A stretch of DNA of 64,000 bases, from the NCBI GenBank assembly GCA_947085535.1, contig CAMTWV010000002.1, positions 94,199-158,198 on the forward strand, written 5' to 3'. The stretch comes from an uncultured Actinomycetes bacterium. Its GTDB lineage: Bacteria > Actinomycetota > Aquicultoria > Subteraquimicrobiales > CAMTWV01. The position numbers and the translations under genes were made by a program. Below are positions 12,500-46,501 of the stretch, one piece after another. Position 1 is the stretch's first letter; each line of letters begins with the position of its first letter. The notes under the pieces are model-generated. The model was not told where the DNA came from. It was given only the letters and a program-made list of their open reading frames with translations, and did no database searches.

Positions 12500-12684
12500 T
12501 TTTTCACCTCCCCTTTTTAATCCCGCTTACCAAGAATGCGTTGGTGATTCGCGATCCCAGTGAAACGGTGAAACAGCTTGTTGCCGCTCCATTGTAAAAA
12601 ATAATGATACCATAGGTTGAAATTGATGTAAAATTCAACCAAAATAGACAAGAAAAAATAGACAAGAAATTTTTGCTATCTTTA

Positions 12685-12713
12685 TTTACAAAATTGAGTT
12701 TATAAAATATATT
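12685..12713 (+). promoter_or_regulatory. Candidate sigma-70 promoter of the HTH-peptidase-7TM operon: -35 TTTACA (12685-12690), 17 nt spacer, -10 TATATT (12708-12713).
   Basis: Hexamers and spacing read directly from the sequence. SD AAAGGAGG at 12741-12748, 7 nt before the ATG at 12753. Confidence 0.4.
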
Positions 12714-12752
12714 TAAAGTCAGTAACGAAATTAAATTAAAAGGAGGATTAAA

Positions 12753-13142
12753 ATGGCAAGTATTGACGAAAAGTTGAGATTTTTATTTACCACACATTTA
12801 AGCCCTGACGGAGATGAATACACCTACGAGGAAGTTGCTCAAGGAACCGGAGGTGTAATTTCACCAAGTTATGTCTGGAATCTCCGAAATGGGAAGAAGC
12901 TGAATCCAAGCCGGTCTAAGATGGAAATACTGGCAAAATTCTTCGATGTGTCACCTTCCTACTTCTTTGATGAGGAAGACGCTCTAAAGAAAAGCTTAAG
13001 CATTGATACAAGAATCGTGAGAGCAATTGAAGACCCAGTGGTAAGAGACATTGCTTTGCGGGCAATGGACTTAAGCGACAGAAACAAAGAGTTTATTTTA
13101 GCTATGGTTGATAAAGCGAAAGAGTTAGTTGAGGAAAAATAG
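12753..13142 (+). CDS. XRE-family helix-turn-helix transcriptional regulator (ImmR/CapH-like: HTH plus helical C-terminal extension).
   Basis: HTH_3-type core (YTYEEVAQGTGGVISPSYVWNLRNGKKLNPSRSKMEILAKFFDVS) and about 50 aa helical tail. Strong SD. Confidence 0.85.
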   Translation: MASIDEKLRFLFTTHLSPDGDEYTYEEVAQGTGGVISPSYVWNLRNGKKLNPSRSKMEILAKFFDVSPSYFFDEEDALKKSLSIDTRIVRAIEDPVVRDIALRAMDLSDRNKEFILAMVDKAKELVEEK

Positions 13143-13660
13143 TGCTCAACCAGAGCAAGCTTAGAAAAAAGGTTAATAAATTGCTAAAAGAATTGAATTT
13201 TGAAGGAAGTTTTGATTCTTTTAGGTTTGTTGAGAAACTCGGGGAGCAATTAAACTTAAAGATAAAACTCCAATCTGTTCCCATGCCGCCCGGTTTTTTT
13301 GGCTTCTGGAGTTTAATCAATGACTGTCATGTCATTCTTTATCGGGCAAATACTTCTTGGTTTCATCAGCAACAAATTATCTTCCATGAATGCGGGCATA
13401 TTTGTTTAGGCCATCATTCAGGAAGCATTGAAAAGTTTTTAAAAAGAGAAATTCTCTACTCCGAGCCCGAGGAGCAAGAAGCAGAAACTTTTGCCACACT
13501 TCTTCTATGTAATGCTATAACTCAGGGATTGACTGAGCAAGGTATTTCTCTAAGCCAATATTATAACCAAAACAGTTCTTTTTACAACGAGTGTCCCCAG
13601 GATGTAATTTCAATGCAGGATTTTATGCTTCAATTAAAAGAAGTAATGGAAATGAGGTGA
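13142..13660 (+). CDS. ImmA/IrrE-family (COG2856) zinc metallopeptidase.
   Basis: HEXXH motif in IIFHECGHICLGHH. GTG start overlaps the upstream TAG (taGTG), implying translational coupling with the HTH gene. Confidence 0.8.
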   Translation: MLNQSKLRKKVNKLLKELNFEGSFDSFRFVEKLGEQLNLKIKLQSVPMPPGFFGFWSLINDCHVILYRANTSWFHQQQIIFHECGHICLGHHSGSIEKFLKREILYSEPEEQEAETFATLLLCNAITQGLTEQGISLSQYYNQNSSFYNECPQDVISMQDFMLQLKEVMEMR

Positions 13661-13670
13661 GGTAACTCCC

Positions 13671-14960
13671 TTGCTTTATTACTTAGATTACCTTTTTCTT
13701 ATGCTCTTTTGGACTTGTACTTTGTATGCGCTTAAAGCTTATTATGTAAATCCACGTGATTCGAAGAATAAGCATGTTTTTTTGGTTTTTTTATTTGCTT
13801 CTATTGCTTTTACCTTTGCCGCACCCATTATTGCTCAAAAATTCAATAAGTTTTTGGGAATTAGCAGCATCAGTCGACCAATCGAGAATATCTCGAGCCT
13901 TATAGCTCTTTACTTTGGCTACCTTTTTTTTACGGATTTTGCTCCTAAAAAAAAGAAAAGAATTCCATGGCTTACTTTCTATCTTTTTTTGGTTACTGTA
14001 GCTCTAATTTCAATTTTTTCCCTGTTTTTGTCCAAACCTCAGCTTGAACCAATTTTTTTGGGTGAGGACACAAGAAATTTATCTGTTTTCATTTACAGTT
14101 TAGTTCTTCAGTCCCTTTTTCTCCCCCTTTTTGCTATTTATGCTTTAAATTTTTATAGATATGCTCGCCTGGTCAAAGAGCAAGCAACAAGAGTCAGACT
14201 TTATTCTTTATCGATAGGTTGTTTAATGGGCGCTTCGGGTCGCATTCTTGAACTCGTTTACTGGTTTGATATGCGGTATTTTGCTTATCTAAAGTTTTTC
14301 GGATTCTCTGCGGTTATTAGAATAATCAATTTATTTATGGTTTTATTTCTTTACGCTGGTTTTATAATGCCTGCTTTTTTAAGGAAAATTGTAGAGTCGT
14401 TTGGCGAACTGTTAGGATTGCGTCGAACTCGATATAATTTGATTTCCTTGCTTGCTTTAATTAACGACGCCCGTTCTTTTCTTCATTCTGATAATGAAAT
14501 GATTAATTATGTGCGGCGACTGTGCGAAAAATTTTTCTTAAGCTTAGAGGAGACAGCGCAGGCGGTAGAAAGTGCTCGGATAATTTCTGCTCTGGCTGGA
14601 AAAACAGATCAAAATTCAACTATGGAGTCTGCTCAGGTTTTTCATAGCGCTGCCAAGTATGCAGCGGCTGCCTTTGCTGAAGAAATTAAGTTTTATGACC
14701 AGGTTTATAAGAATATTTTGTATGCCAAGGAAAGGTATGACGGAAAGGATGCTATTTCTGACTTAAGTGGGGATAAATTACCAATGGGCTCACGCATTAT
14801 AAAAGTGGTTGATTGCTATTTCAATTCAAATCTTTTTCCCTTCGAAGCAGTCAAAGTTTTAAAGAAAGGTGCGAATAAAGAATTTGATCCCGAAGTAATA
14901 AAAGCTTTTATTGAAATACTCGAGGAAGAAAAAAACCTCAATCTCTTAAGATCTTCTTAG
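13671..14960 (+). CDS. 7-TM membrane protein with a C-terminal degenerate (non-catalytic) HD-GYP-like domain.
   Basis: Seven predicted TM helices in residues 1-240. The C-terminus aligns to the HD-GYP tail (ERYDGKDAIS...GSRIIKVVDCYFNS...EFDPEVIKAFIEIL) but the HD dyad (ALAGK instead of LHDIGK) and GYP are lost. TTG start 10 nt after the peptidase stop. Confidence 0.7.
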   Translation: MLYYLDYLFLMLFWTCTLYALKAYYVNPRDSKNKHVFLVFLFASIAFTFAAPIIAQKFNKFLGISSISRPIENISSLIALYFGYLFFTDFAPKKKKRIPWLTFYLFLVTVALISIFSLFLSKPQLEPIFLGEDTRNLSVFIYSLVLQSLFLPLFAIYALNFYRYARLVKEQATRVRLYSLSIGCLMGASGRILELVYWFDMRYFAYLKFFGFSAVIRIINLFMVLFLYAGFIMPAFLRKIVESFGELLGLRRTRYNLISLLALINDARSFLHSDNEMINYVRRLCEKFFLSLEETAQAVESARIISALAGKTDQNSTMESAQVFHSAAKYAAAAFAEEIKFYDQVYKNILYAKERYDGKDAISDLSGDKLPMGSRIIKVVDCYFNSNLFPFEAVKVLKKGANKEFDPEVIKAFIEILEEEKNLNLLRSS

Positions 14961-18123: not shown

Positions 18124-18441
18124 TTAGTCAGGAGTCATGATTGAGACATTTGTTTTTAAGATGCTTACTGAATGCATTTGTTCAATAAAACGTTCAATGG
18201 TGTGAAGTGTTCTTTTTGCTTGAAAACTCGACTGGCTGATGCAAGCAATTCCTATTGTTGCTCTTTGCCAGAGGTCGTGATGGTCAACCTCATTTACTGC
18301 CGCATTAAATTGGTTTTTAACTTTATTTATGAGACTTTTAATTACCCGTCTTTTTTCTTTAAGGGAGTTGCAGCCGGGTATAAGCAAATCTAATTTCATT
18401 AAACCCACTACCATACAAACTCCTGATTCGATCGTAAGCAA
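18124..18441 (-). CDS. DUF503 (YlxP-like) protein.
   Basis: Conserved small ORF between infB and rbfA, as ylxP is in Bacillus. Confidence 0.7.
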   Translation of the reverse strand: MLTIESGVCMVVGLMKLDLLIPGCNSLKEKRRVIKSLINKVKNQFNAAVNEVDHHDLWQRATIGIACISQSSFQAKRTLHTIERFIEQMHSVSILKTNVSIMTPD

Positions 18442-42044: not shown

Positions 42045-42971
42045 TTACTCTGACAAGAGGGCTTCCGTGAATTCATCAGGATTAAATTCACGCAAATCTT
42101 CCAAGCCCTCACCTATGCCAATTAGTTTAATGGGTATTTTTAGTTCGTCCTGAATAGCTATAACTATGCCGCCTCTGGCTGTACCGTCAAGCTTAGTCAG
42201 AATTATTCCATCAATACCCAGAGTTTCTTGAAAAACTTTTGCCTGGGTAATTCCGTTGTGTCCTGTCGTAGCATCAACCACAAGAAGTGTTTTTAAGTTC
42301 GCCTTGGGTGCCTCGCATTCAATTATGCGTTTAACCTTTTTTAGTTCTTCCATTAAATTTAAATAAGTATGCAGTCTTCCGGCCGTATCGATTAATAAAA
42401 CATTTGCTTTTCGGGCAAGTGCAGCGTGTACAGCATCAAAAGCTACAGCCGAAGGATTAGCGCCGCGTTTATGGCAAACACACTCAATGTCTAATTTTTT
42501 TGCCCAGACTTGAAGCTGTTCAATAGCAGCAGCCCTAAAAGTATCCGATGCGCAAAGTATTGGTTTTAAGTTTTTTTGCTTCACCTGATGGGCCATTTTT
42601 GCAATGGTAGTGGTTTTACCTGTGCCATTAACTCCCACAATTAAGAAGACATTTAGCTGATTGTCCTTTAAAAGTACATCCTCTTCCTTTCTTAAAATGG
42701 TTATTAATTCCCCCTTTAGATACTCCAAAATTTCCGGAGGATTTTTTAATTCGCCTCTTTTAACTTTCTCTTTTAAGTTGGAGACAAGCTTTATAGTAGT
42801 AGTCACACCTACATCAGCCCCAAGGAGTATTTCTTCGACTTTTTCCCAAACATGTTCTTCGAAACGAGTAAGTCGAGGAAAAATAGAAGAAAGCTCATGC
42901 GTAAGATTCTCGCGACTTTTTCTCAATCTTCTCTTAAGTTTTTCAAACAATTTTTCATCGGTAATTTTCAT
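42045..42971 (-). CDS. ftsY: SRP receptor FtsY (short form, NG domains only).
   Basis: GVNGTGKTTT, DTAGR motifs. 308 aa. Confidence 0.93.
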   Translation of the reverse strand: MKITDEKLFEKLKRRLRKSRENLTHELSSIFPRLTRFEEHVWEKVEEILLGADVGVTTTIKLVSNLKEKVKRGELKNPPEILEYLKGELITILRKEEDVLLKDNQLNVFLIVGVNGTGKTTTIAKMAHQVKQKNLKPILCASDTFRAAAIEQLQVWAKKLDIECVCHKRGANPSAVAFDAVHAALARKANVLLIDTAGRLHTYLNLMEELKKVKRIIECEAPKANLKTLLVVDATTGHNGITQAKVFQETLGIDGIILTKLDGTARGGIVIAIQDELKIPIKLIGIGEGLEDLREFNPDEFTEALLSE

Positions 42972-45900
42972 ACTGCTTCACGCTCAGCGTTAAGTTTTTG
43001 TGAAATCAGTTTGGAAACACCATCAGCCTGCATGGTTGTGCCATAAATTGTGTCAGCCATTTCCATGGTTCGTTGCTGATGGGTGATGATTAGAAACTGA
43101 GTTTTGTCCTTTAACCTTAATAAAAGATTAATGAAGCGCTGAAGATTAGCTTCATCCAGAGACGCTTCAACTTCATCAAGGATGTAAAATGGGCTAGGCC
43201 TTGTAAAGTATAGGGCAAACAAGAAAGCTAAAGCAGCGAGTGCGGTTTCGCCCCCTGACAAAAGAGAAAGTTTCTGAAGTTTTTTCCCTTGCGGCTGAAT
43301 CTGTATCTCAATTCCTGACTCAAGAAGATTATCTTCTTTTTCTAAAACAATCTCAGCTTTTCCACCGGGAAATAAATAAGAAAAAACGGATTGGAAATTC
43401 TTATTAACTTCAACAAGAGTTTGGGCAAATTTTTCTTTTATTTTTTCATCTATTGCTCTGGTGACTTTTTCTAAAGCTTTTTTGCTATGCGATAAGTCAT
43501 TTATTTGTTCGTTCAAGAATTCATAACGCTCATCAAGCTCTTTAAATTCCTCAAGCGCCATGGGATTAACAGGACCCAGACTGCTTATTTTGCGCTTAAT
43601 TTCGCCAATTTTAGTCTGGCACTCAGAGTAAGAAATTTTTAGAGGATAATTTTCAAGTGCTTTCTCGAGCGGCGTATCGTATTCATCGACAATTTTTTCA
43701 ACAGCTGAGGTGATTTGTCCTTCCAACTGCACCCGACTTAATTCTTTTAAGCGTAAATCTTCTTGAAGTGTCTCTTTTTTTGCCTCGCATCCCTCTTTTT
43801 CTTCTTTAAGTTTTTTGAAAGCCCGCCTGATTTCTTCAAAGAATGTTTCATCCCCTGAAGCAATATCAGTCAGTTTCGCCGCCCACCAGTTTCCTTTTTC
43901 GTATAGGGCGGTAAAGAGCTCATAAGTGGGTTGTATGCGACCGACTAAAACTTCAAGCGCTTGAGAAATTTTGTGTTCGGATTCAGTTAAACTTTCAATT
44001 TCTCTTAAATCCTGATTTAATTTTTCTTTTTGCTGGTTTAGATGATTTTTTTGATTGACCAGCGATTTTAAATTAACTTCATTTTCCATTATTTTATGGC
44101 TGAGAGTAAGTTCTTCTTTATGGTTTGCATTTAATTCAACTTTGAAAACCTGGAGAGCTTCCTTTGCTTCATCTATTTTTGCTACAATATTTTTACTTTC
44201 TTTTGAGAAATTTTCTTTTGTGGTTTTGTCAATCTTTATTTCTTCACCAAGTTTATTTGACTCATTTTCAGCTTTTACTAAGTTATCTTTAAGCTTAATT
44301 AAGTCAGCCTCAAAATTGTGTATAGTCACTTTAAGAATTTCAATTTGAGAAGACTCATTGTTTAGCTTTTGTTGATATGAAGCTAAATTTTCTTTTGTTT
44401 GAGCGAGCCTTTCTTTATCTTTTTTAATTTCTGCCTCTAAAGTTGAAATCCCATGAGTTAATTTATTTTTTTCATCTTCAAGTGCTGTAAGCTCTCTTTT
44501 TCTATTTAAGATTTCCGAGGAATTGTTGCCAGCGATATTCCCGTAGCTTATTTTAAATGGGCAAAACACTTTGCCATTAGTTGTAACAAAAGTTAAATCA
44601 GAGCTTGTTTTATCGCTTAAACAACTGTCTTCGTTGATCAAATAAATATCTCTGGTTAGATACTCAATCGCCGATTTAAATTTTTCGTTTATTTCAATAA
44701 CGTCGCTTAATTTTTGTCCATTTGATTTGTGAGTATCAGGCATAGGAAGATTATTTATTGGAAGAAAAGAGATACCGCCCTGAATCGAGTTTCTTCGAAT
44801 AAGCCCAAGAGCATTTAAAGCCGTTTCTTTTGTGTCGCAAAGCACTGTGAATAAGTCAGGACCTAAAGCTGCCTCCAAAGCTTGTTCAAATTTAGGGGAA
44901 ATTTTAATTAAATCAATAAGGCAACCTGCTATGCCTTGAGGTTTGTTTTCTTTTTTTAATAACCAAGCTACTGCCTCAGGATAACCGGTTAAGTTGTTGT
45001 TCATGCCTTGAAGAGCATTGCTTTTTGATTTGCATTCAGCTGATTTTATTTTTAAGTCAGATAACTTCACCAGATGATTGTCTAATTTAAGTTGAACCTT
45101 ATTTAGTTCCTCTTCTAATTGTTTTATTTCTTTCCGGGAGTTTTTAATGTTACCCTCAAACCCTTCTCTTTCTTTGCTTTTAGCTTCAATTAACTTATTT
45201 AGCTCACTTATTTTTGTGAGATTAGAATTTCTTTCCGAGTCGATGAGTTTTAATTTTTCTTCGTTAAGGGTAATTTTTCTGTCAATATCAGATAACTTGT
45301 GCTGAATTTCAGAAAGATAAGCAGTGTTTTTATTAAGCGTCTCTTCCAAATTTTCAATCGTTTCTTCCAGATTAGAGCTTTTCTTAGTTTGATTTTCTTG
45401 AGAATTTTTAAGTTCATTTAAAGTATTTTCAATATGGCTTATTTCTTCCTCTGTTTTTTTCTTTCTATCATTTGTTTCTGTTATCTCTTTGTTCTTTTGG
45501 GTCTTTTGTTTTTCAAGCCGGTAAATTTCCTGCCGAATCTCGCTCATTTTTTCAATTAAGTGTTTACCTTTTTCCTCTAAAAGCAACATACTGCTATGAA
45601 GTCTTTCCTGAATAGCAGCAAGATGTCTTCTTTGTTCACTTAAATTTCCGGTAAAAAGTCTTTTCTCCTCTAAAGAGATCTGAAACTCTTCAATTTGGGT
45701 TTCTTTTTGTTTAAATTCATTTTTAAAAGTTTCAAAGCTTTCTTTTAACTGCTTTTCCTCTAAATTAAGCTTTTCCCATCTCTTTTGCATCTCTTTTAAT
45801 TCGAAAATTGTCTGACTTAGCTCTAACGTTTTTAACTCGTCGGTCAGCTTCTGGTATTCTTGAGCTTTTTCCGCCTGAGATTTTATGGGTCTAAGTTGAC

Positions 45901-46501
45901 GATGTACTTCTTGAGAAATATCTCGAATTCTTGATAGAGTTTGCTCCATTGACTCCAATTTTTTAATTGCCTTTTCTTTCCTTTTCTTATACTTCAATAC
46001 ATGAGCAACTTCCTCAATTAGAAGCCTTTTTTCTTCTGGCTTACTGGTTAAAATTTCTTCTAATTTCCCCTGACTGATAACAGAGTGGCACTCCCTTCCC
46101 ATTGCGGAGTCAGATAATAATTCCTGGATATCAAACAGTCGGCAAGGGGAATTATTTATGAAGTACTCTGAATCACCTGAGCGAAACAGACGGCGGCTAA
46201 TTGTTACCTCAGAAAATTCCAGGGGTATACTTTTATCTGAATTATCCATACAAAGAGTAATCTCGGCTAAGCCTAATGCTGGACGAGCGCTACTACCAGC
46301 AAAAATTACATCTTCCATAGCAGTGCCTCTAAGCGAGCGTGGACTTTGCTCTCCCAGCACCCAGAGGACTGCATCAGAAATATTACTTTTGCCGCTGCCG
46401 TTTGGACCTGCAATTACAGTTATTCCTGGTTTAAACTTTAAAATTGTTTTATCAGCAAAGGATTTAAATCCTTTGAGCGTTAAAGATTTAAGATACATCA
46501 A
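42968..46501 (-). CDS. smc: Chromosome partition protein Smc.
   Basis: Walker A GPNGSGKSN, long coiled coils, hinge, C-terminal LSGGE signature. 1177 aa. Confidence 0.95.
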   Translation of the reverse strand: MMYLKSLTLKGFKSFADKTILKFKPGITVIAGPNGSGKSNISDAVLWVLGEQSPRSLRGTAMEDVIFAGSSARPALGLAEITLCMDNSDKSIPLEFSEVTISRRLFRSGDSEYFINNSPCRLFDIQELLSDSAMGRECHSVISQGKLEEILTSKPEEKRLLIEEVAHVLKYKKRKEKAIKKLESMEQTLSRIRDISQEVHRQLRPIKSQAEKAQEYQKLTDELKTLELSQTIFELKEMQKRWEKLNLEEKQLKESFETFKNEFKQKETQIEEFQISLEEKRLFTGNLSEQRRHLAAIQERLHSSMLLLEEKGKHLIEKMSEIRQEIYRLEKQKTQKNKEITETNDRKKKTEEEISHIENTLNELKNSQENQTKKSSNLEETIENLEETLNKNTAYLSEIQHKLSDIDRKITLNEEKLKLIDSERNSNLTKISELNKLIEAKSKEREGFEGNIKNSRKEIKQLEEELNKVQLKLDNHLVKLSDLKIKSAECKSKSNALQGMNNNLTGYPEAVAWLLKKENKPQGIAGCLIDLIKISPKFEQALEAALGPDLFTVLCDTKETALNALGLIRRNSIQGGISFLPINNLPMPDTHKSNGQKLSDVIEINEKFKSAIEYLTRDIYLINEDSCLSDKTSSDLTFVTTNGKVFCPFKISYGNIAGNNSSEILNRKRELTALEDEKNKLTHGISTLEAEIKKDKERLAQTKENLASYQQKLNNESSQIEILKVTIHNFEADLIKLKDNLVKAENESNKLGEEIKIDKTTKENFSKESKNIVAKIDEAKEALQVFKVELNANHKEELTLSHKIMENEVNLKSLVNQKNHLNQQKEKLNQDLREIESLTESEHKISQALEVLVGRIQPTYELFTALYEKGNWWAAKLTDIASGDETFFEEIRRAFKKLKEEKEGCEAKKETLQEDLRLKELSRVQLEGQITSAVEKIVDEYDTPLEKALENYPLKISYSECQTKIGEIKRKISSLGPVNPMALEEFKELDERYEFLNEQINDLSHSKKALEKVTRAIDEKIKEKFAQTLVEVNKNFQSVFSYLFPGGKAEIVLEKEDNLLESGIEIQIQPQGKKLQKLSLLSGGETALAALAFLFALYFTRPSPFYILDEVEASLDEANLQRFINLLLRLKDKTQFLIITHQQRTMEMADTIYGTTMQADGVSKLISQKLNAEREAV

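What the first reader, a model, noticed from the sequence alone, without database searches (positions are those of the whole stretch)
13671..14960. 7-TM protein with a catalytically dead HD-GYP-like domain
Residues 1-240 form seven hydrophobic helices with no extracytoplasmic domain. The C-terminal 190 aa align to the HD-GYP fold through its tail (ERYDGKDAIS, GSRIIKVVDCYFNS, EFDPEVIKAFIEIL). The metal-binding HD (ALAGK here versus LHDIGK) and GYP (KDA here) positions are substituted. Degenerate HD-GYP domains are rarely characterised. Fused to a 7TM module, it could be a receptor for a cyclic (di)nucleotide or other nucleotide signal that gates a membrane activity.
Basis: partly seen in the sequence, partly recalled or inferred. 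Interest (0 to 1): 0.6.

Follow-up and report, generated by a model that had tools for sequence, protein, structure and literature searches.

The report
Membrane protein with dead HD-GYP domain
This gene encodes a seven-helix membrane protein whose inner domain is a burnt-out copy of a cyclic-di-GMP-degrading enzyme; it is the third gene of a conserved, unstudied cassette (EspR-like repressor, small zinc peptidase, membrane protein) found across Actinomycetota, and it most likely acts as the membrane arm of a gene switch, not as a nucleotide receptor.

Summary
ORF 13671-14960 (+) encodes a 429-aa protein with seven TM helices, no outside domain, a stalk helix and a complete HD-GYP fold (aa 247-424). 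Only one of seven metal-ligand positions survives, and GYP reads DAI.

None of the eight c-di-GMP contact residues of DvhD, the only solved degenerate HD-GYP receptor, is retained. The lid loop carrying two of them is deleted in every family member.

New findings:
- The 7TM module is homologous to the actinobacterial MAB_1171c/DUF6545 family.
- The gene is translationally coupled to an EspR-family HTH repressor and a 172-aa ImmA-like HExxH peptidase.
- This three-gene cassette recurs in four different genomic contexts and in all eight Streptomyces plasmid loci examined. There it is usually followed by a P450, monooxygenase or amidase gene.
- All three proteins are orthologous across these loci.

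Best reading, inferred and not shown: the 7TM pseudo-enzyme is the membrane sensor or docking arm of a protease/repressor switch.

Main rival: it is a regulated membrane effector or transport partner.

The family is rare (about a dozen clusters) and unannotated. I rate it a new variant of a known kind, of moderate interest.

The parts
12641..12668 (+). Perfect tandem 14-mer AAAATAGACAAGAA x2, followed by an imperfect inverted copy (TTTTTGCTATCTTT, to about 12684). Candidate operator for the HTH protein.
   Evidence: Conserved in the 96 % relative L003 with a 2-nt indel. One EspR-type TTTGCTA site lies at 12672, but that is not above background (1.2 per kb). Function is inferred only.
12685..12713 (+). 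Sigma-70-like promoter (TTTACA-17-TATATT) 40 nt upstream of the HTH gene.
   Evidence: 10 of 12 matches. The number of such sites in the region is not above the shuffled expectation, so this is a consensus match only.
12753..13142 (+). Gene 1: 129-aa EspR-family HTH regulator. N-terminal HTH_3 domain, C-terminal domain with the conserved VVRDIALRA motif (aa 96-104, nt 13038-13064).
   Evidence: Pfam HTH_3 5.6e-6. PADLOC capH 3.8e-8 over nearly the whole profile. PDB EspR 5e-9 over aa 7-123. Profile of triad HTHs vs EspR 3.6e-29. R98, A101 and R103 are invariant or nearly so.
13142..13660 (+). Gene 2: 172-aa ImmA/IrrE-like (M78) zinc metallopeptidase with HExxH at aa 82-86 (nt 13385-13399) and Glu111 as candidate third ligand. 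No GAF or other sensor domain. The start overlaps the stop of gene 1.
   Evidence: Pfam Peptidase_M78 19.2 bits (cut-off 22). PHROG metallo-protease 4.8e-9. PADLOC capP 2e-6, profile positions 3-112 of 242 only. H82, E83, H86 and E111 are invariant in 11 triad orthologues. No hit to any solved structure.
13671..14378 (+). Gene 3, aa 1-236: seven-TM module of the MAB_1171c type. Shared motifs are G63-x-x-S/N66 in outer loop 2-3, F116, R163-Y-A165 at the inner end of TM5, G183 and G230...P234.
   Evidence: NCBIfam NF042915 2e-17, 63 bits, aa 8-245. hhalign vs the MAB_1171c family 98.9 %, E 1.3e-17. AF2 helices. Conserved columns. Foldseek shows weak GPCR/bacteriorhodopsin-like 7TM hits (E 0.09-0.4).
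14373..14480 (+). Gene 3, aa 235-270: long cytoplasmic stalk helix running from TM7 into the HD-GYP-like domain.
   Evidence: AF2 helix 235-270. It aligns with the first (stalk) helix of HD-GYP domains. In DvhD this helix transmits the signal.
14409..14942 (+). Gene 3, aa 247-424: complete but degenerate HD-GYP domain. HD position is RIISALAGK (nt 14577-14603). HHE-GYP position is AKERYDGKDAI (nt 14724-14756). Lid-loop deletion lies at DCYF|NSNL (nt 14811-14834). Retained scaffold: ERYDG, PMGSRIIKVV (nt 14781-14810), FDP (nt 14883-14891).
   Evidence: Family-invariant residues E300, F341, Y356, P371, I376, V379, D406, P407. dN/dS vs the 96 % relative is 0.16 for aa 237-420 against 0.56 for aa 1-236, on small counts.
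14938..14960 (.). 23-nt convergent overlap of the 3' end of gene 3 with the 3' end of ribF (minus strand). This is the right-hand limit of the cassette.
   Evidence: No flanking repeats were found.

Best explanation
The 429-aa protein is the membrane component of a three-gene, self-contained regulatory cassette (nt 12641-14960). The genes, in order, are an EspR-family HTH repressor, a small ImmA/IrrE-like zinc peptidase and a 7TM protein with a cytoplasmic pseudo-HD-GYP domain.

Shown: the HD-GYP domain is homologous to active enzymes but has lost its metal site, its GYP motif and its nucleotide lid. The 7TM module belongs to the MAB_1171c/DUF6545 lineage. The three genes travel together and co-diverge.

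Inferred: the 7TM bundle acts as a receptor for a membrane or extracellular cue, possibly a lipophilic xenobiotic. The signal passes down the stalk helix to the pseudo-enzyme domain. That domain has been re-used as a docking and allosteric platform for the sensor-less peptidase and/or the repressor. The peptidase then cleaves the repressor in its C-terminal oligomerisation domain (candidate sites V97|R98 or L102|R103). This de-represses the cassette and, where present, the enzyme gene that follows it. In loci without a peptidase the 7TM protein would control the repressor directly, for example by sequestration. The logic is that of BlaR1/BlaI or ImmA/ImmR, with sensor and protease on separate polypeptides.
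For: 1. Dead enzyme under selection. The catalytic and ligand residues are gone. Yet the ERYDG / P.G.RI..VV / FDP scaffold is invariant across relatives of 20-50 % identity. dN/dS of the C-domain is 0.16, similar to the neighbouring housekeeping genes at 0.12-0.13.
2. Tight linkage. Genes 1 and 2 overlap, and genes 2 and 3 are 10 nt apart with the RBS inside the gene-2 stop region. The same trio occurs in four different neighbourhoods: between rpsO and ribF (window, L003); between TA pairs (L001/L002); between ispDF with a histidine kinase and cysS (L004, 24 % identity); and in L096 and L099.
3. The 7TM is homologous to MAB_1171c (99.4 %, E 2e-21). All eight Streptomyces plasmid MAB_1171c loci examined show HTH, then 'toxin'/ImmA-like peptidase, then 7TM.
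4. HTH and peptidase are orthologous between the window and the Streptomyces triads (phmmer 1e-7 to 1e-16).
5. The peptidase has an intact HExxH...E but no sensor domain. It is 172 aa and matches only positions 3-112 of the 242-position capP profile. CapP needs its extra domains to sense ssDNA. An external activator is therefore required.
6. Variable, translationally coupled enzyme genes follow the 7TM gene elsewhere: P450 four times, FAD monooxygenase twice, amidase, deacetylase, PNP-like. This is as expected for outputs of a shared regulatory module.
7. HTH+7TM pairs without a peptidase exist.
8. The 7TM fold is GPCR/rhodopsin-like, with few conserved polar residues in the membrane.
9. A transposon mutant of M. 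abscessus MAB_1171c is viable, more sensitive to cefoxitin and clarithromycin, and forms less biofilm (PMC8707978).
10. Related peptidases cut related repressors before an Arg in the C-terminal domain: CapH at F82|R83.
Against: No computation here shows contact between the three proteins, cleavage of the HTH, or any ligand. The window cassette has no downstream cargo gene, so its output is undefined unless the EspR-like protein acts in trans. Translational coupling of the 7TM gene to P450 or monooxygenase genes fits a 7TM-enzyme working pair equally well. PADLOC capH/capP similarity, and the location of some relatives among TA or defence genes (L001, L096), fit a regulated toxic effector. The operator and promoter are consensus-level predictions only. 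The dN/dS values rest on 5-22 substitutions.
Confidence: 0.42

Rival explanations
1. Regulated membrane effector or transport partner. The HTH and peptidase pair is only the on-switch, ImmR/ImmA- or CapH/CapP-like and responding to DNA damage or stress. The 7TM protein is the payload. It could be a pore or toxin acting in abortive infection or a tripartite toxin-antitoxin system. It could also be a permease or membrane adaptor that hands a lipophilic substrate to the enzyme encoded just downstream.
For: PADLOC capH 3.8e-8 and capP 2e-6. PGAP labels the Streptomyces peptidases 'toxin'. L001 lies between PIN/MazE and PIN/RHH pairs, and L096 next to AAA_15/AAA_21, pP_pnuc_1 and a PNP_UDP_1 gene. 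There are 4-nt overlaps between the 7TM gene and P450, amidase or monooxygenase genes. NCBI names the family 'putative transporter'.
Against: In CapH/CapP systems the regulated operon is divergent from the regulators. Here all genes are co-directional and coupled, so repressor and payload would rise together. The 7TM protein has no PADLOC or PHROG hit and no match in phage or plasmid records. The only transporter similarity is an 18-bit, bias-laden hit to POT transporters. The M. abscessus mutant phenotype is loss of tolerance, not loss of a toxin. A roughly 180-aa signalling-derived cytoplasmic domain under purifying selection is not explained. The cassette sits stably inside a core housekeeping cluster in two strains.
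Confidence: 0.28
2. The degenerate HD-GYP domain is a receptor for c-di-GMP or another cyclic (oligo)nucleotide, and ligand binding gates the 7TM module by inside-out signalling, as in DvhD or LapD.
For: DvhD shows that a metal-free HD-GYP domain (HD changed to SQ, HH changed to MN) can bind c-di-GMP and move its stalk helix. The window protein has the same TM-stalk-HD-GYP layout. DvhD is the best Foldseek hit. An invariant Glu (E300) three residues before the lost HD is shared with DvhD but not with active enzymes. P0008 still has GYP, and P0010 and P0011 have G-R/Q-P.
Against: None of DvhD's eight canonical-site contacts is identical, and one is conservative (Y652 to F384). M646 and R650 fall in a loop deleted in the whole family. 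The L577/K582 loop is shortened and disordered. The GYP Tyr is Ala. The operon contains no cyclase or other nucleotide-signalling gene.
Confidence: 0.12
3. Decaying remnant. The C-terminal domain is a non-functional relic, and the gene is an orphaned, drifting copy of a mobile immunity (ImmR/ImmA-type) module.
For: All catalytic residues are lost. The family is tiny, about a dozen clusters among 1.84 billion representatives. There is no cargo gene in the window.
Against: The reading frame is intact in every homologue at 20-96 % identity, with the same architecture. The C-domain has the lowest dN/dS of the protein at 0.16. Conserved motifs persist across relatives assigned to different phyla (Actinomycetota and Thermaerobacter MAGs). 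The triad is maintained in different loci.
Confidence: 0.05

Closest known systems
MAB_1171c family / DUF6545 proteins (NCBIfam NF042915, Pfam PF20182) of Streptomyces and Mycobacterium
   Same: Homologous 7TM module (hhalign 98.9-99.4 %). Same gene order of HTH, ImmA-like peptidase, 7TM, with orthologous partners. Similar size and a similar AF2 layout of 7TM plus stalk plus helical cytoplasmic domain.
   Different: The C-terminal domain here is a recognisable HD-GYP domain, not DUF6545. There is no Pfam DUF6545 hit, and the NF042915 score of 63 is below its cut-off of 100. The alignment runs on into the first helices of the C-domain (to aa 310). On its own that stretch scores only 70 %, E 4e-5. 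DUF6545 does not hit HD-GYP directly, either by sequence (9 %) or by Foldseek. The family itself is uncharacterised, with no paper on DUF6545.
DvhD of Desulfovibrio vulgaris (PDB 9rbz/9rc0), a degenerate HD-GYP c-di-GMP receptor
   Same: Membrane protein with a stalk helix leading to a metal-free HD-GYP domain. HD and HH motifs are substituted. It is the best structural match.
   Different: DvhD has 2 TM helices, a periplasmic dCache domain and a PAS domain. It keeps GYP, the lid loop and all c-di-GMP contacts, and it controls a periplasmic protease in a Lap-like operon. The window protein keeps none of the contacts and sits in an HTH/peptidase operon.
Active HD-GYP phosphodiesterases (RpfG, PA4781 4r8z, PmGH 4mcw, V-cGAP3 5z7c)
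   Same: Same domain over its full length, with a conserved ERxDG...IPxGxRI...FDP scaffold.
   Different: Metal ligands, GYP and the lid loop are lost, so no phosphodiesterase activity is possible. From my own knowledge, the GYP region of RpfG also mediates protein-protein contacts with GGDEF proteins, which is a precedent for a docking role.
ImmR/ImmA (ICEBs1), DdrO/IrrE (Deinococcus), CapH/CapP (CBASS and other defence operons)
   Same: An HTH repressor plus an HExxH metallopeptidase encoded side by side. capH and capP profiles match. Cleavage before an Arg in the repressor's C-terminal domain is the known mechanism.
   Different: The peptidase is short, like ImmA, and lacks the GAF/ssDNA-sensing part of CapP and IrrE. 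The regulated gene is co-directional, not divergent. A dedicated 7TM partner has not been described for any of these pairs.
EspR (Rv3849) of Mycobacterium tuberculosis
   Same: The cassette's HTH protein is an EspR homologue over both domains (5e-9 for the single sequence, 3.6e-29 for the triad profile). This includes the C-terminal VRxIAxRA motif. EspR is autoregulatory.
   Different: EspR is studied as a nucleoid-associated virulence regulator. No partner peptidase or 7TM protein has been reported in the papers searched. Whether its neighbours Rv3848 and Rv3850 correspond to triad members was not testable here.
7TMR-HD / PgpH-type receptors and BlaR1/BlaI (functional analogies)
   Same: PgpH is a 7TM module fused to a cytoplasmic HD-superfamily domain. 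In BlaR1/BlaI a membrane sensor triggers a zinc protease that removes a repressor. Both statements are from my own knowledge.
   Different: The 7TM family is unrelated: no Pfam 7TM-7TMR_HD hit. PgpH is an active c-di-AMP phosphodiesterase. In BlaR1 the sensor and protease are one polypeptide of another peptidase family.

Membership tests
HD-GYP domain (Pfam HD_5, PF13487) | Sequence and fold homology over the domain | tested here: met
   31.1 bits against a cut-off of 27.2. hhalign 99.9 %, E 1.8e-33 over aa 247-424. PDB profile hits 4r8z, 5z7c and 9rbz. The top six Foldseek hits are HD-GYP domains.
HD-GYP domain (active phosphodiesterase) | His-Asp dyad (LHDxGK) | tested here: not met
   RIISALAGK at aa 303-311, with no His or Asp in any register. 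The dyad is absent from all family members; P0005 keeps the His only and P0010 the Asp only.
HD-GYP domain (active phosphodiesterase) | HHExxDGxGYP motif | tested here: not met
   AKERYDGKDAI at aa 352-362. Both His residues are lost and GYP reads DAI.
HD-GYP domain (active phosphodiesterase) | Remaining metal ligands: first His (HSxRV), His of 'HP', Asp of 'ADx(F/Y)D' | tested here: not met
   Only Asp381 is retained. H272 and H325 lie one residue off the ligand columns and are not conserved in the family. The list of ligand positions is from my own knowledge of PmGH.
DvhD-type degenerate HD-GYP c-di-GMP receptor | Canonical-site contacts Y523, L577, K582, Y621, M646, R650, Y652, E668 | tested here: not met
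   They map to L271, N315, S320, A361, gap, gap, F384 and A401/G400. The lid loop is deleted. I derived the residue numbering by matching all residues named in the paper to the chain sequence.
DvhD-type degenerate HD-GYP c-di-GMP receptor | Stalk helix linking the membrane to the HD-GYP domain and mediating dimerisation | tested here: inconclusive
   The helix at 235-270 is present in the monomer model. Dimerisation was not testable.
MAB_1171c family putative transporter (NF042915) | Whole-protein score at or above the curated cut-off (100 bits) | tested here: not met
   63.3 bits, covering aa 8-245 only.
MAB_1171c family putative transporter (NF042915) | Homologous seven-TM module | tested here: met
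   hhalign 98.9 %, E 1.3e-17 for aa 3-236, and 99.4 % for the full length. Shared motifs are listed.
MAB_1171c family putative transporter (NF042915) | C-terminal DUF6545 domain (PF20182) | tested here: inconclusive
   No Pfam hit. The first roughly 60 residues of the C-domain align with the DUF6545 core at 70 %, E 4e-5. The AF2 model of P0089 gives no HD-GYP Foldseek hit.
MAB_1171c family putative transporter (NF042915) | Operon with an XRE/EspR-like HTH and an ImmA-like peptidase upstream | tested here: met
   Window, plus 8 of 8 plasmid loci. The partners are orthologous.
ImmA/IrrE (Peptidase_M78), for neighbour gene 13142-13660 | HExxH plus a downstream Glu; family-level score | tested here: inconclusive
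   H82, E83, H86 and E111 are invariant. Pfam gives 19.2 bits against a cut-off of 22. PHROG metallo-protease scores 4.8e-9. There is no PDB sequence hit.
CapH/CapP DNA-damage switch | CapP three-domain architecture (peptidase, HTH-like linker, GAF) with an ssDNA groove, and regulators placed divergently from the controlled operon | tested here: not met
   The capP profile matches at positions 3-112 of 242 only, and the protein is 172 aa. All genes are co-directional.
EspR family, for neighbour gene 12753-13142 | HTH plus the EspR-type C-terminal dimerisation domain over the full length | tested here: met
   3qf3 5.2e-9 over aa 7-123. The triad profile hits EspR at 3.6e-29.
7TMR-HD (PgpH-like) receptors | 7TM-7TMR_HD membrane module plus an active HD domain | tested here: not met
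   No such Pfam hit at E up to 10. The HD dyad is absent.
Known anti-phage defence proteins (PADLOC) and phage proteins (PHROGs) | Profile match of the 7TM protein itself | tested here: not met
   No families found in either library. No tblastn match in phage or plasmid records.

The most novel reading that the evidence does not exclude
The EspR-like HTH, the ImmA-like peptidase and the 7TM (MAB_1171c/DUF6545) protein together form a previously unrecognised three-component transmembrane signalling system of Actinomycetota. In this reading a GPCR-like 7TM receptor uses a cytoplasmic pseudo-HD-GYP domain to license proteolysis or sequestration of the repressor, and this switches on xenobiotic-modifying enzymes such as P450s, monooxygenases and amidases. 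The window protein would be the 'missing link' showing that the whole DUF6545 family descends from a 7TM-HD-GYP receptor. M. tuberculosis EspR would be a member of this regulator class, possibly one that has lost its partners.
Probability: 0.22. Interest if true: 0.8.

Novelty: new variant of a known kind. Interest (0 to 1): 0.55.

Why it matters
Degenerate HD-GYP domains are common in genomes, but only one (DvhD, 2026) has a demonstrated non-catalytic role.

This family has lost even the nucleotide site yet stays under selection. That points to a third fate for the fold, as a protein-docking or signal-relay module.

The gene also ties three things together: a large unstudied actinobacterial membrane family (MAB_1171c/DUF6545, linked to antibiotic tolerance in M. 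abscessus), ImmA-like peptidases, and regulators of the EspR family.

If the triad is a membrane-triggered protease/repressor switch, it would give a testable function to hundreds of Streptomyces loci that sit in front of P450 and monooxygenase genes. It would also suggest a new way of looking at how EspR-type regulators are controlled.

Tried and rejected
- Word-indexed homologue searches were swamped by generic HD-GYP proteins and returned only 4-11 relevant hits. The exhaustive representative search was needed.
- The search for related loci failed with the 12-sequence alignment. With a 5-sequence alignment it returned one true relative (the same contig as L001) and 79 ordinary HD-GYP genes among 185,579 species genomes.
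- tblastn of the protein against plasmids and phages gave no match.
- PADLOC and PHROGs gave nothing for the 7TM protein.
- Rfam found nothing in the window.
- I considered homology between this 7TM module and the multi-TM modules of intact TM-HD-GYP enzymes (P0020 and others). It was rejected at hhalign 0.1 %. The long phmmer alignments into the TM region were hydrophobic carry-over.
- DUF6545 as a relic HD-GYP domain gets only transitive, partial support. DUF6545 vs the window family scores 70 %. DUF6545 vs intact HD-GYP scores 9 %. Foldseek of the P0089 model finds only GPCR-like 7TM hits.
- The EspR binding motif TTTGC[TC][GA] occurs once in the promoter region, which is not above background.
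- No flanking direct or inverted repeats mark an insertion.
- The transporter reading rests on an 18-bit, high-bias hit to POT transporters, which I judged compositional.
- The source contig of the window could not be retrieved.
- The low-GC stretch at 44-46 kb is the SMC coiled coil and is ordinary.
Full report
**1. What is at the coordinates**

The ORF 13671-14960 (+) is real. It has a TTG start, 429 codons and a GAGGTGAGG Shine-Dalgarno about 8 nt upstream. Homologues begin with the same MLYYLD.

Hydropathy and an AlphaFold2 model (mean pLDDT 81.5, pTM 0.59, 12-sequence alignment) agree on seven TM helices: 3-26, 31-50, 68-88, 92-120, 137-167, 171-203 and 212-231. Two short loop helices lie at 52-62 and 123-130. 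No outer loop exceeds about 17 residues. The K/R-rich loops 27-34, 89-97 and 161-176 put the N-terminus outside and the C-terminal domain inside.

TM7 continues after Pro234 into a 36-residue stalk helix (235-270) and then an all-helical domain.

**2. The C-terminal domain is a whole HD-GYP domain, and it is dead**

- Pfam HD_5 passes its cut-off (31.1 vs 27.2 bits) but sees only profile positions 65-170.
- A profile of the protein's family against nine intact HD-GYP domains gives 99.9 %, E 1.8e-33. It aligns aa 247-424 to the entire domain.
- The family profile hits the solved HD-GYP proteins V-cGAP3 (5e-15), PA4781 (1.5e-14, aa 249-420 to chain 4-203) and DvhD (7e-10).
- The six best Foldseek PDB matches of the model are all HD-GYP domains: 9rbz, 4r8z, 9rc0 and 4mcw, probability 1.00, E 7e-3 to 6e-2.

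I could place seven metal-ligand positions by motif; the ligand list is from my own knowledge of PmGH. They are the first His, the HD pair, the His of 'HP', the two His of HHE, and the Asp of 'ADxxD'. Only Asp381 survives. HD reads RIISALAGK, HHE reads AKE and GYP reads DAI. His272 and His325 lie one residue off ligand columns and are not conserved among homologues.

Its exact register at the HD position is off by one or two residues, which makes no difference.

**3. Could it still be a nucleotide receptor?**

The best precedent is DvhD. A 2026 paper shows that its metal-free HD-GYP domain (HD changed to SQ, HH changed to MN) binds c-di-GMP and moves its stalk helix (PMC13090378).

I matched every residue named in that paper to the chain sequence printed. 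I then mapped the eight canonical-site contacts onto the window protein using an HMM alignment:

| DvhD contact | Window protein |
|---|---|
| Y523 | L271 |
| L577 | N315 |
| K582 | S320 |
| Y621 (the GYP Tyr) | A361 |
| M646 | deleted |
| R650 | deleted |
| Y652 | F384 |
| E668 | A401 or G400 |

N315 and S320 lie in a shortened loop modelled with pLDDT below 50. M646 and R650 fall in an 8-residue deletion of the 'AMTSxRPY' lid loop. Every family member has a 3-9-residue deletion there.

Nucleotide binding at the canonical site is therefore unlikely. I cannot exclude some other ligand.

**4. The family**

An exhaustive HMMER search of 1.84 billion representatives found 761 hits, but only about a dozen share the whole architecture. 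These are P0001, P0004-P0012 and P0046, at 96 % down to about 20 % identity.

All are unannotated 'hypothetical proteins' from MAGs: Actinomycetota, Ca. Subteraquimicrobiales/Aquicultoria and Thermaerobacter. All lack the HD dyad. P0008 still has GYP, and P0010 and P0011 have G-R/Q-P, so the family looks like a decay series from a genuine HD-GYP ancestor.

No member with this 7TM module and an intact catalytic site was found. Intact TM-HD-GYP proteins in the hit list carry an unrelated membrane module (hhalign 0.1 %).

What stays invariant is the scaffold: E300, F341/Y342, ERYD, P371-x-G-x-R-I-I-x-V-V and F405-D-P. Against the 96 % relative, dN/dS is 0.16 for aa 237-420 and 0.56 for aa 1-236. 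The flanking ribF and pnp genes give 0.12-0.13. Counts are small, so this is indicative only. The dead domain is being kept.

**5. The membrane module belongs to the MAB_1171c/DUF6545 lineage**

NCBIfam NF042915 matches aa 8-245 at 2e-17, with 63 bits, below its cut-off of 100. Profile-profile comparison with ten Streptomyces and other family members gives 99.4 %, E 2.3e-21. It aligns aa 3-310 to 7-362 of P0089. The 7TM part alone gives 98.9 %.

Shared motifs are G63-x-x-S/N66 in the outer loop, F116, R163-Y-A, G183 and G230...P234.

The alignment runs on past the membrane into the first helices of the C-domain. On its own that stretch scores 70 %, E 4e-5 against the DUF6545 core. DUF6545 does not hit intact HD-GYP (9 %). 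Foldseek of an AF2 model of P0089 (pLDDT 80.8) finds only GPCR-like 7TM bundles. That DUF6545 is a reduced HD-GYP domain is therefore a lead, not a result.

Both models give weak but consistent GPCR/bacteriorhodopsin-type 7TM matches. No paper mentions DUF6545. The only phenotype is for a transposon mutant of M. abscessus MAB_1171c. It has lower cefoxitin and clarithromycin MICs and about half the biofilm (PMC8707978).

**6. Context: a conserved three-gene cassette**

The gene is the last of three tightly packed + strand genes. They form the only sizeable + strand block in a 64-kb run of minus-strand housekeeping genes (ftsK, dapB, pnp, rpsO | ribF, truB, rbfA, infB, nusA ... smc, ffh, fabF, recG).

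- *Gene 1 (12753-13142)* is an HTH protein. It matches PADLOC capH (3.8e-8) and, over both of its domains, M. tuberculosis EspR (5e-9). A profile of the triad HTHs hits EspR at 3.6e-29.
- *Gene 2 (13142-13660)* is a 172-aa ImmA/IrrE-like peptidase. It scores Pfam M78 19.2 bits against a cut-off of 22, PHROG metalloprotease 4.8e-9, and PADLOC capP 2e-6 over profile positions 3-112 of 242 only. H82, E83, H86 and E111 are invariant. It has no sensor domain.

The same trio accompanies homologues of 50 %, 31 %, 24 % and 22 % identity in quite different neighbourhoods (L001/L002, L096, L004, L099). All eight Streptomyces plasmid MAB_1171c loci I opened read HTH, then 'toxin' or ImmA/IrrE peptidase, then MAB_1171c.

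The window's HTH and peptidase are orthologous to those partners (phmmer 1e-7 to 1e-16). Variants exist. L094 and L095 have HTH plus 7TM without a peptidase. L093 has peptidase plus 7TM.

In most non-window loci an enzyme gene follows the 7TM gene, often with a 4-nt overlap:
- cytochrome P450, four times;
- FAD monooxygenase, twice;
- amidase;
- polysaccharide deacetylase;
- a second DUF6545 gene followed by a disulfide oxidoreductase;
- a PNP_UDP_1 protein.

The window, L001 and L004 have no such cargo.

Upstream of gene 1 lie a perfect tandem 14-mer (12641-12668) with an imperfect inverted copy, and a sigma-70-like promoter (12685-12713). These are candidate operator and promoter only.

**7. 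Mechanism**

*Shown:* homology, loss of catalytic and nucleotide-contact residues, purifying selection, gene linkage and co-divergence.

*Inferred:* the cassette is a membrane-triggered protease/repressor switch.
- The related pairs ImmR/ImmA, DdrO/IrrE and CapH/CapP work by peptidase cleavage of the repressor's C-terminal domain before an Arg. CapH is cut at F82|R83.
- The triad HTHs carry an invariant V-R98-x-I-A-L-R103 motif in that domain.
- CapP and IrrE sense their signal through extra domains that this peptidase lacks, so something else must activate it.
- The constantly co-inherited 7TM protein, with a receptor-like fold, a signalling-type stalk helix and a conserved cytoplasmic pseudo-enzyme surface, is the obvious candidate.
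- The variable downstream enzymes would be the outputs. This fits the antibiotic-tolerance phenotype in M. abscessus.

I put this at about 0.4.

*Main rival (about 0.3):* the 7TM protein is the payload, either a membrane toxin or effector, or a permease or adaptor working with the downstream enzyme.
- For it: the capH/capP similarity, the TA or defence neighbourhoods of L001 and L096, and the translational coupling to enzymes.
- Against it: the co-directional layout, the absence of any defence, phage or transporter signature in the protein, and the unexplained conserved signalling-type domain.

**8. Comparison and novelty**

The protein is a homologue of HD-GYP enzymes but fails every catalytic criterion. 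It resembles DvhD in layout but fails its ligand-site criteria. It shares its membrane module and operon with the MAB_1171c family but not the family's C-terminal domain or its score threshold.

The architecture (MAB_1171c-type 7TM plus recognisable HD-GYP) and the triad as a functional unit are not described in any paper I could find. I rate it a new variant of a known kind: a degenerate signalling domain inside an ImmA/ImmR-like switch.

The most novel reading still open is a new three-component transmembrane signalling system of Actinomycetota that includes EspR-type regulators.

**9. Limits**

- The plasmid sample is eight loci, all Streptomyces.
- The dN/dS values rest on few substitutions.
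- The operator and promoter are pattern matches.

Noticed in passing
window 12753-13142 (and L085-L095 orthologues): The cassette's HTH protein is a full-length homologue of M. tuberculosis EspR. The triad HTH profile hits EspR at E 3.6e-29, including the C-terminal VRxIAxRA motif. EspR-type regulators may generally belong with an ImmA-like peptidase and a 7TM partner.
   Followed up: partly
L086 4722-5927, L087 4676-5854, L088 4535-5728, L092 3700-4905, L090 3654-5051, L089 3664-5238, L085 4759-5529, L099 3330-4409, L096 6293-7126: In most related loci the 7TM gene is followed, often with a 4-nt overlap, by a variable enzyme gene: cytochrome P450 four times, FAD monooxygenase twice, amidase, polysaccharide deacetylase, and a PNP_UDP_1 nucleosidase-like protein. 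The window, L001 and L004 lack such cargo.
   Followed up: partly
L094 3388-5308, L095 3314-5209, L093 3389-5221: Two-gene variants of the cassette exist. L094 and L095 have an EspR-like HTH (192 aa, with an N-terminal extension) plus a DUF6545 7TM protein and no peptidase. L093 has a peptidase plus 7TM protein with no called HTH.
   Followed up: partly
L091 2486-3637 and 3774-4982: Two MAB_1171c/DUF6545 paralogues sit in tandem behind one HTH and peptidase pair on a Streptomyces plasmid.
   Followed up: no
L096 862-2991 and 7149-8306: The relative that still has a GYP motif (P0008) sits between an AAA_15/AAA_21 ATPase gene and a pP_pnuc_1 nuclease-like gene. This is a defence-island-like neighbourhood.
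   Followed up: no
window 12641-12668: A perfect tandem 14-mer AAAATAGACAAGAA x2, followed by an imperfect inverted copy, lies immediately upstream of the cassette's promoter-like site. It is conserved in the 96 % relative with a 2-nt indel.
   Followed up: partly
window 12500-14960 within 1-64000: The cassette is the only sizeable + strand coding block in 64 kb of minus-strand housekeeping genes. It splits the usual ribF-rpsO-pnp neighbourhood, and its 3' end overlaps ribF by 23 nt. No flanking repeats or integrase are present.
   Followed up: partly
window 14568-14570 (Glu300): A family-invariant Glu three residues before the lost HD dyad (VES/VEA/IEA) is shared with the degenerate receptor DvhD (VETAANLSQ). 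Active HD-GYP enzymes have L, F, Y or K at that position. It may be a compensating residue in the emptied metal site.
   Followed up: no
window 18124-18441: A DUF503 gene sits between rbfA and infB in the nusA-infB operon. This is ordinary for many Gram-positive lineages.
   Followed up: no
window 42968-46501: The low-GC (0.32), strongly AT-skewed stretch at 44-46 kb is the coiled-coil part of an SMC gene. It is ordinary.
   Followed up: yes
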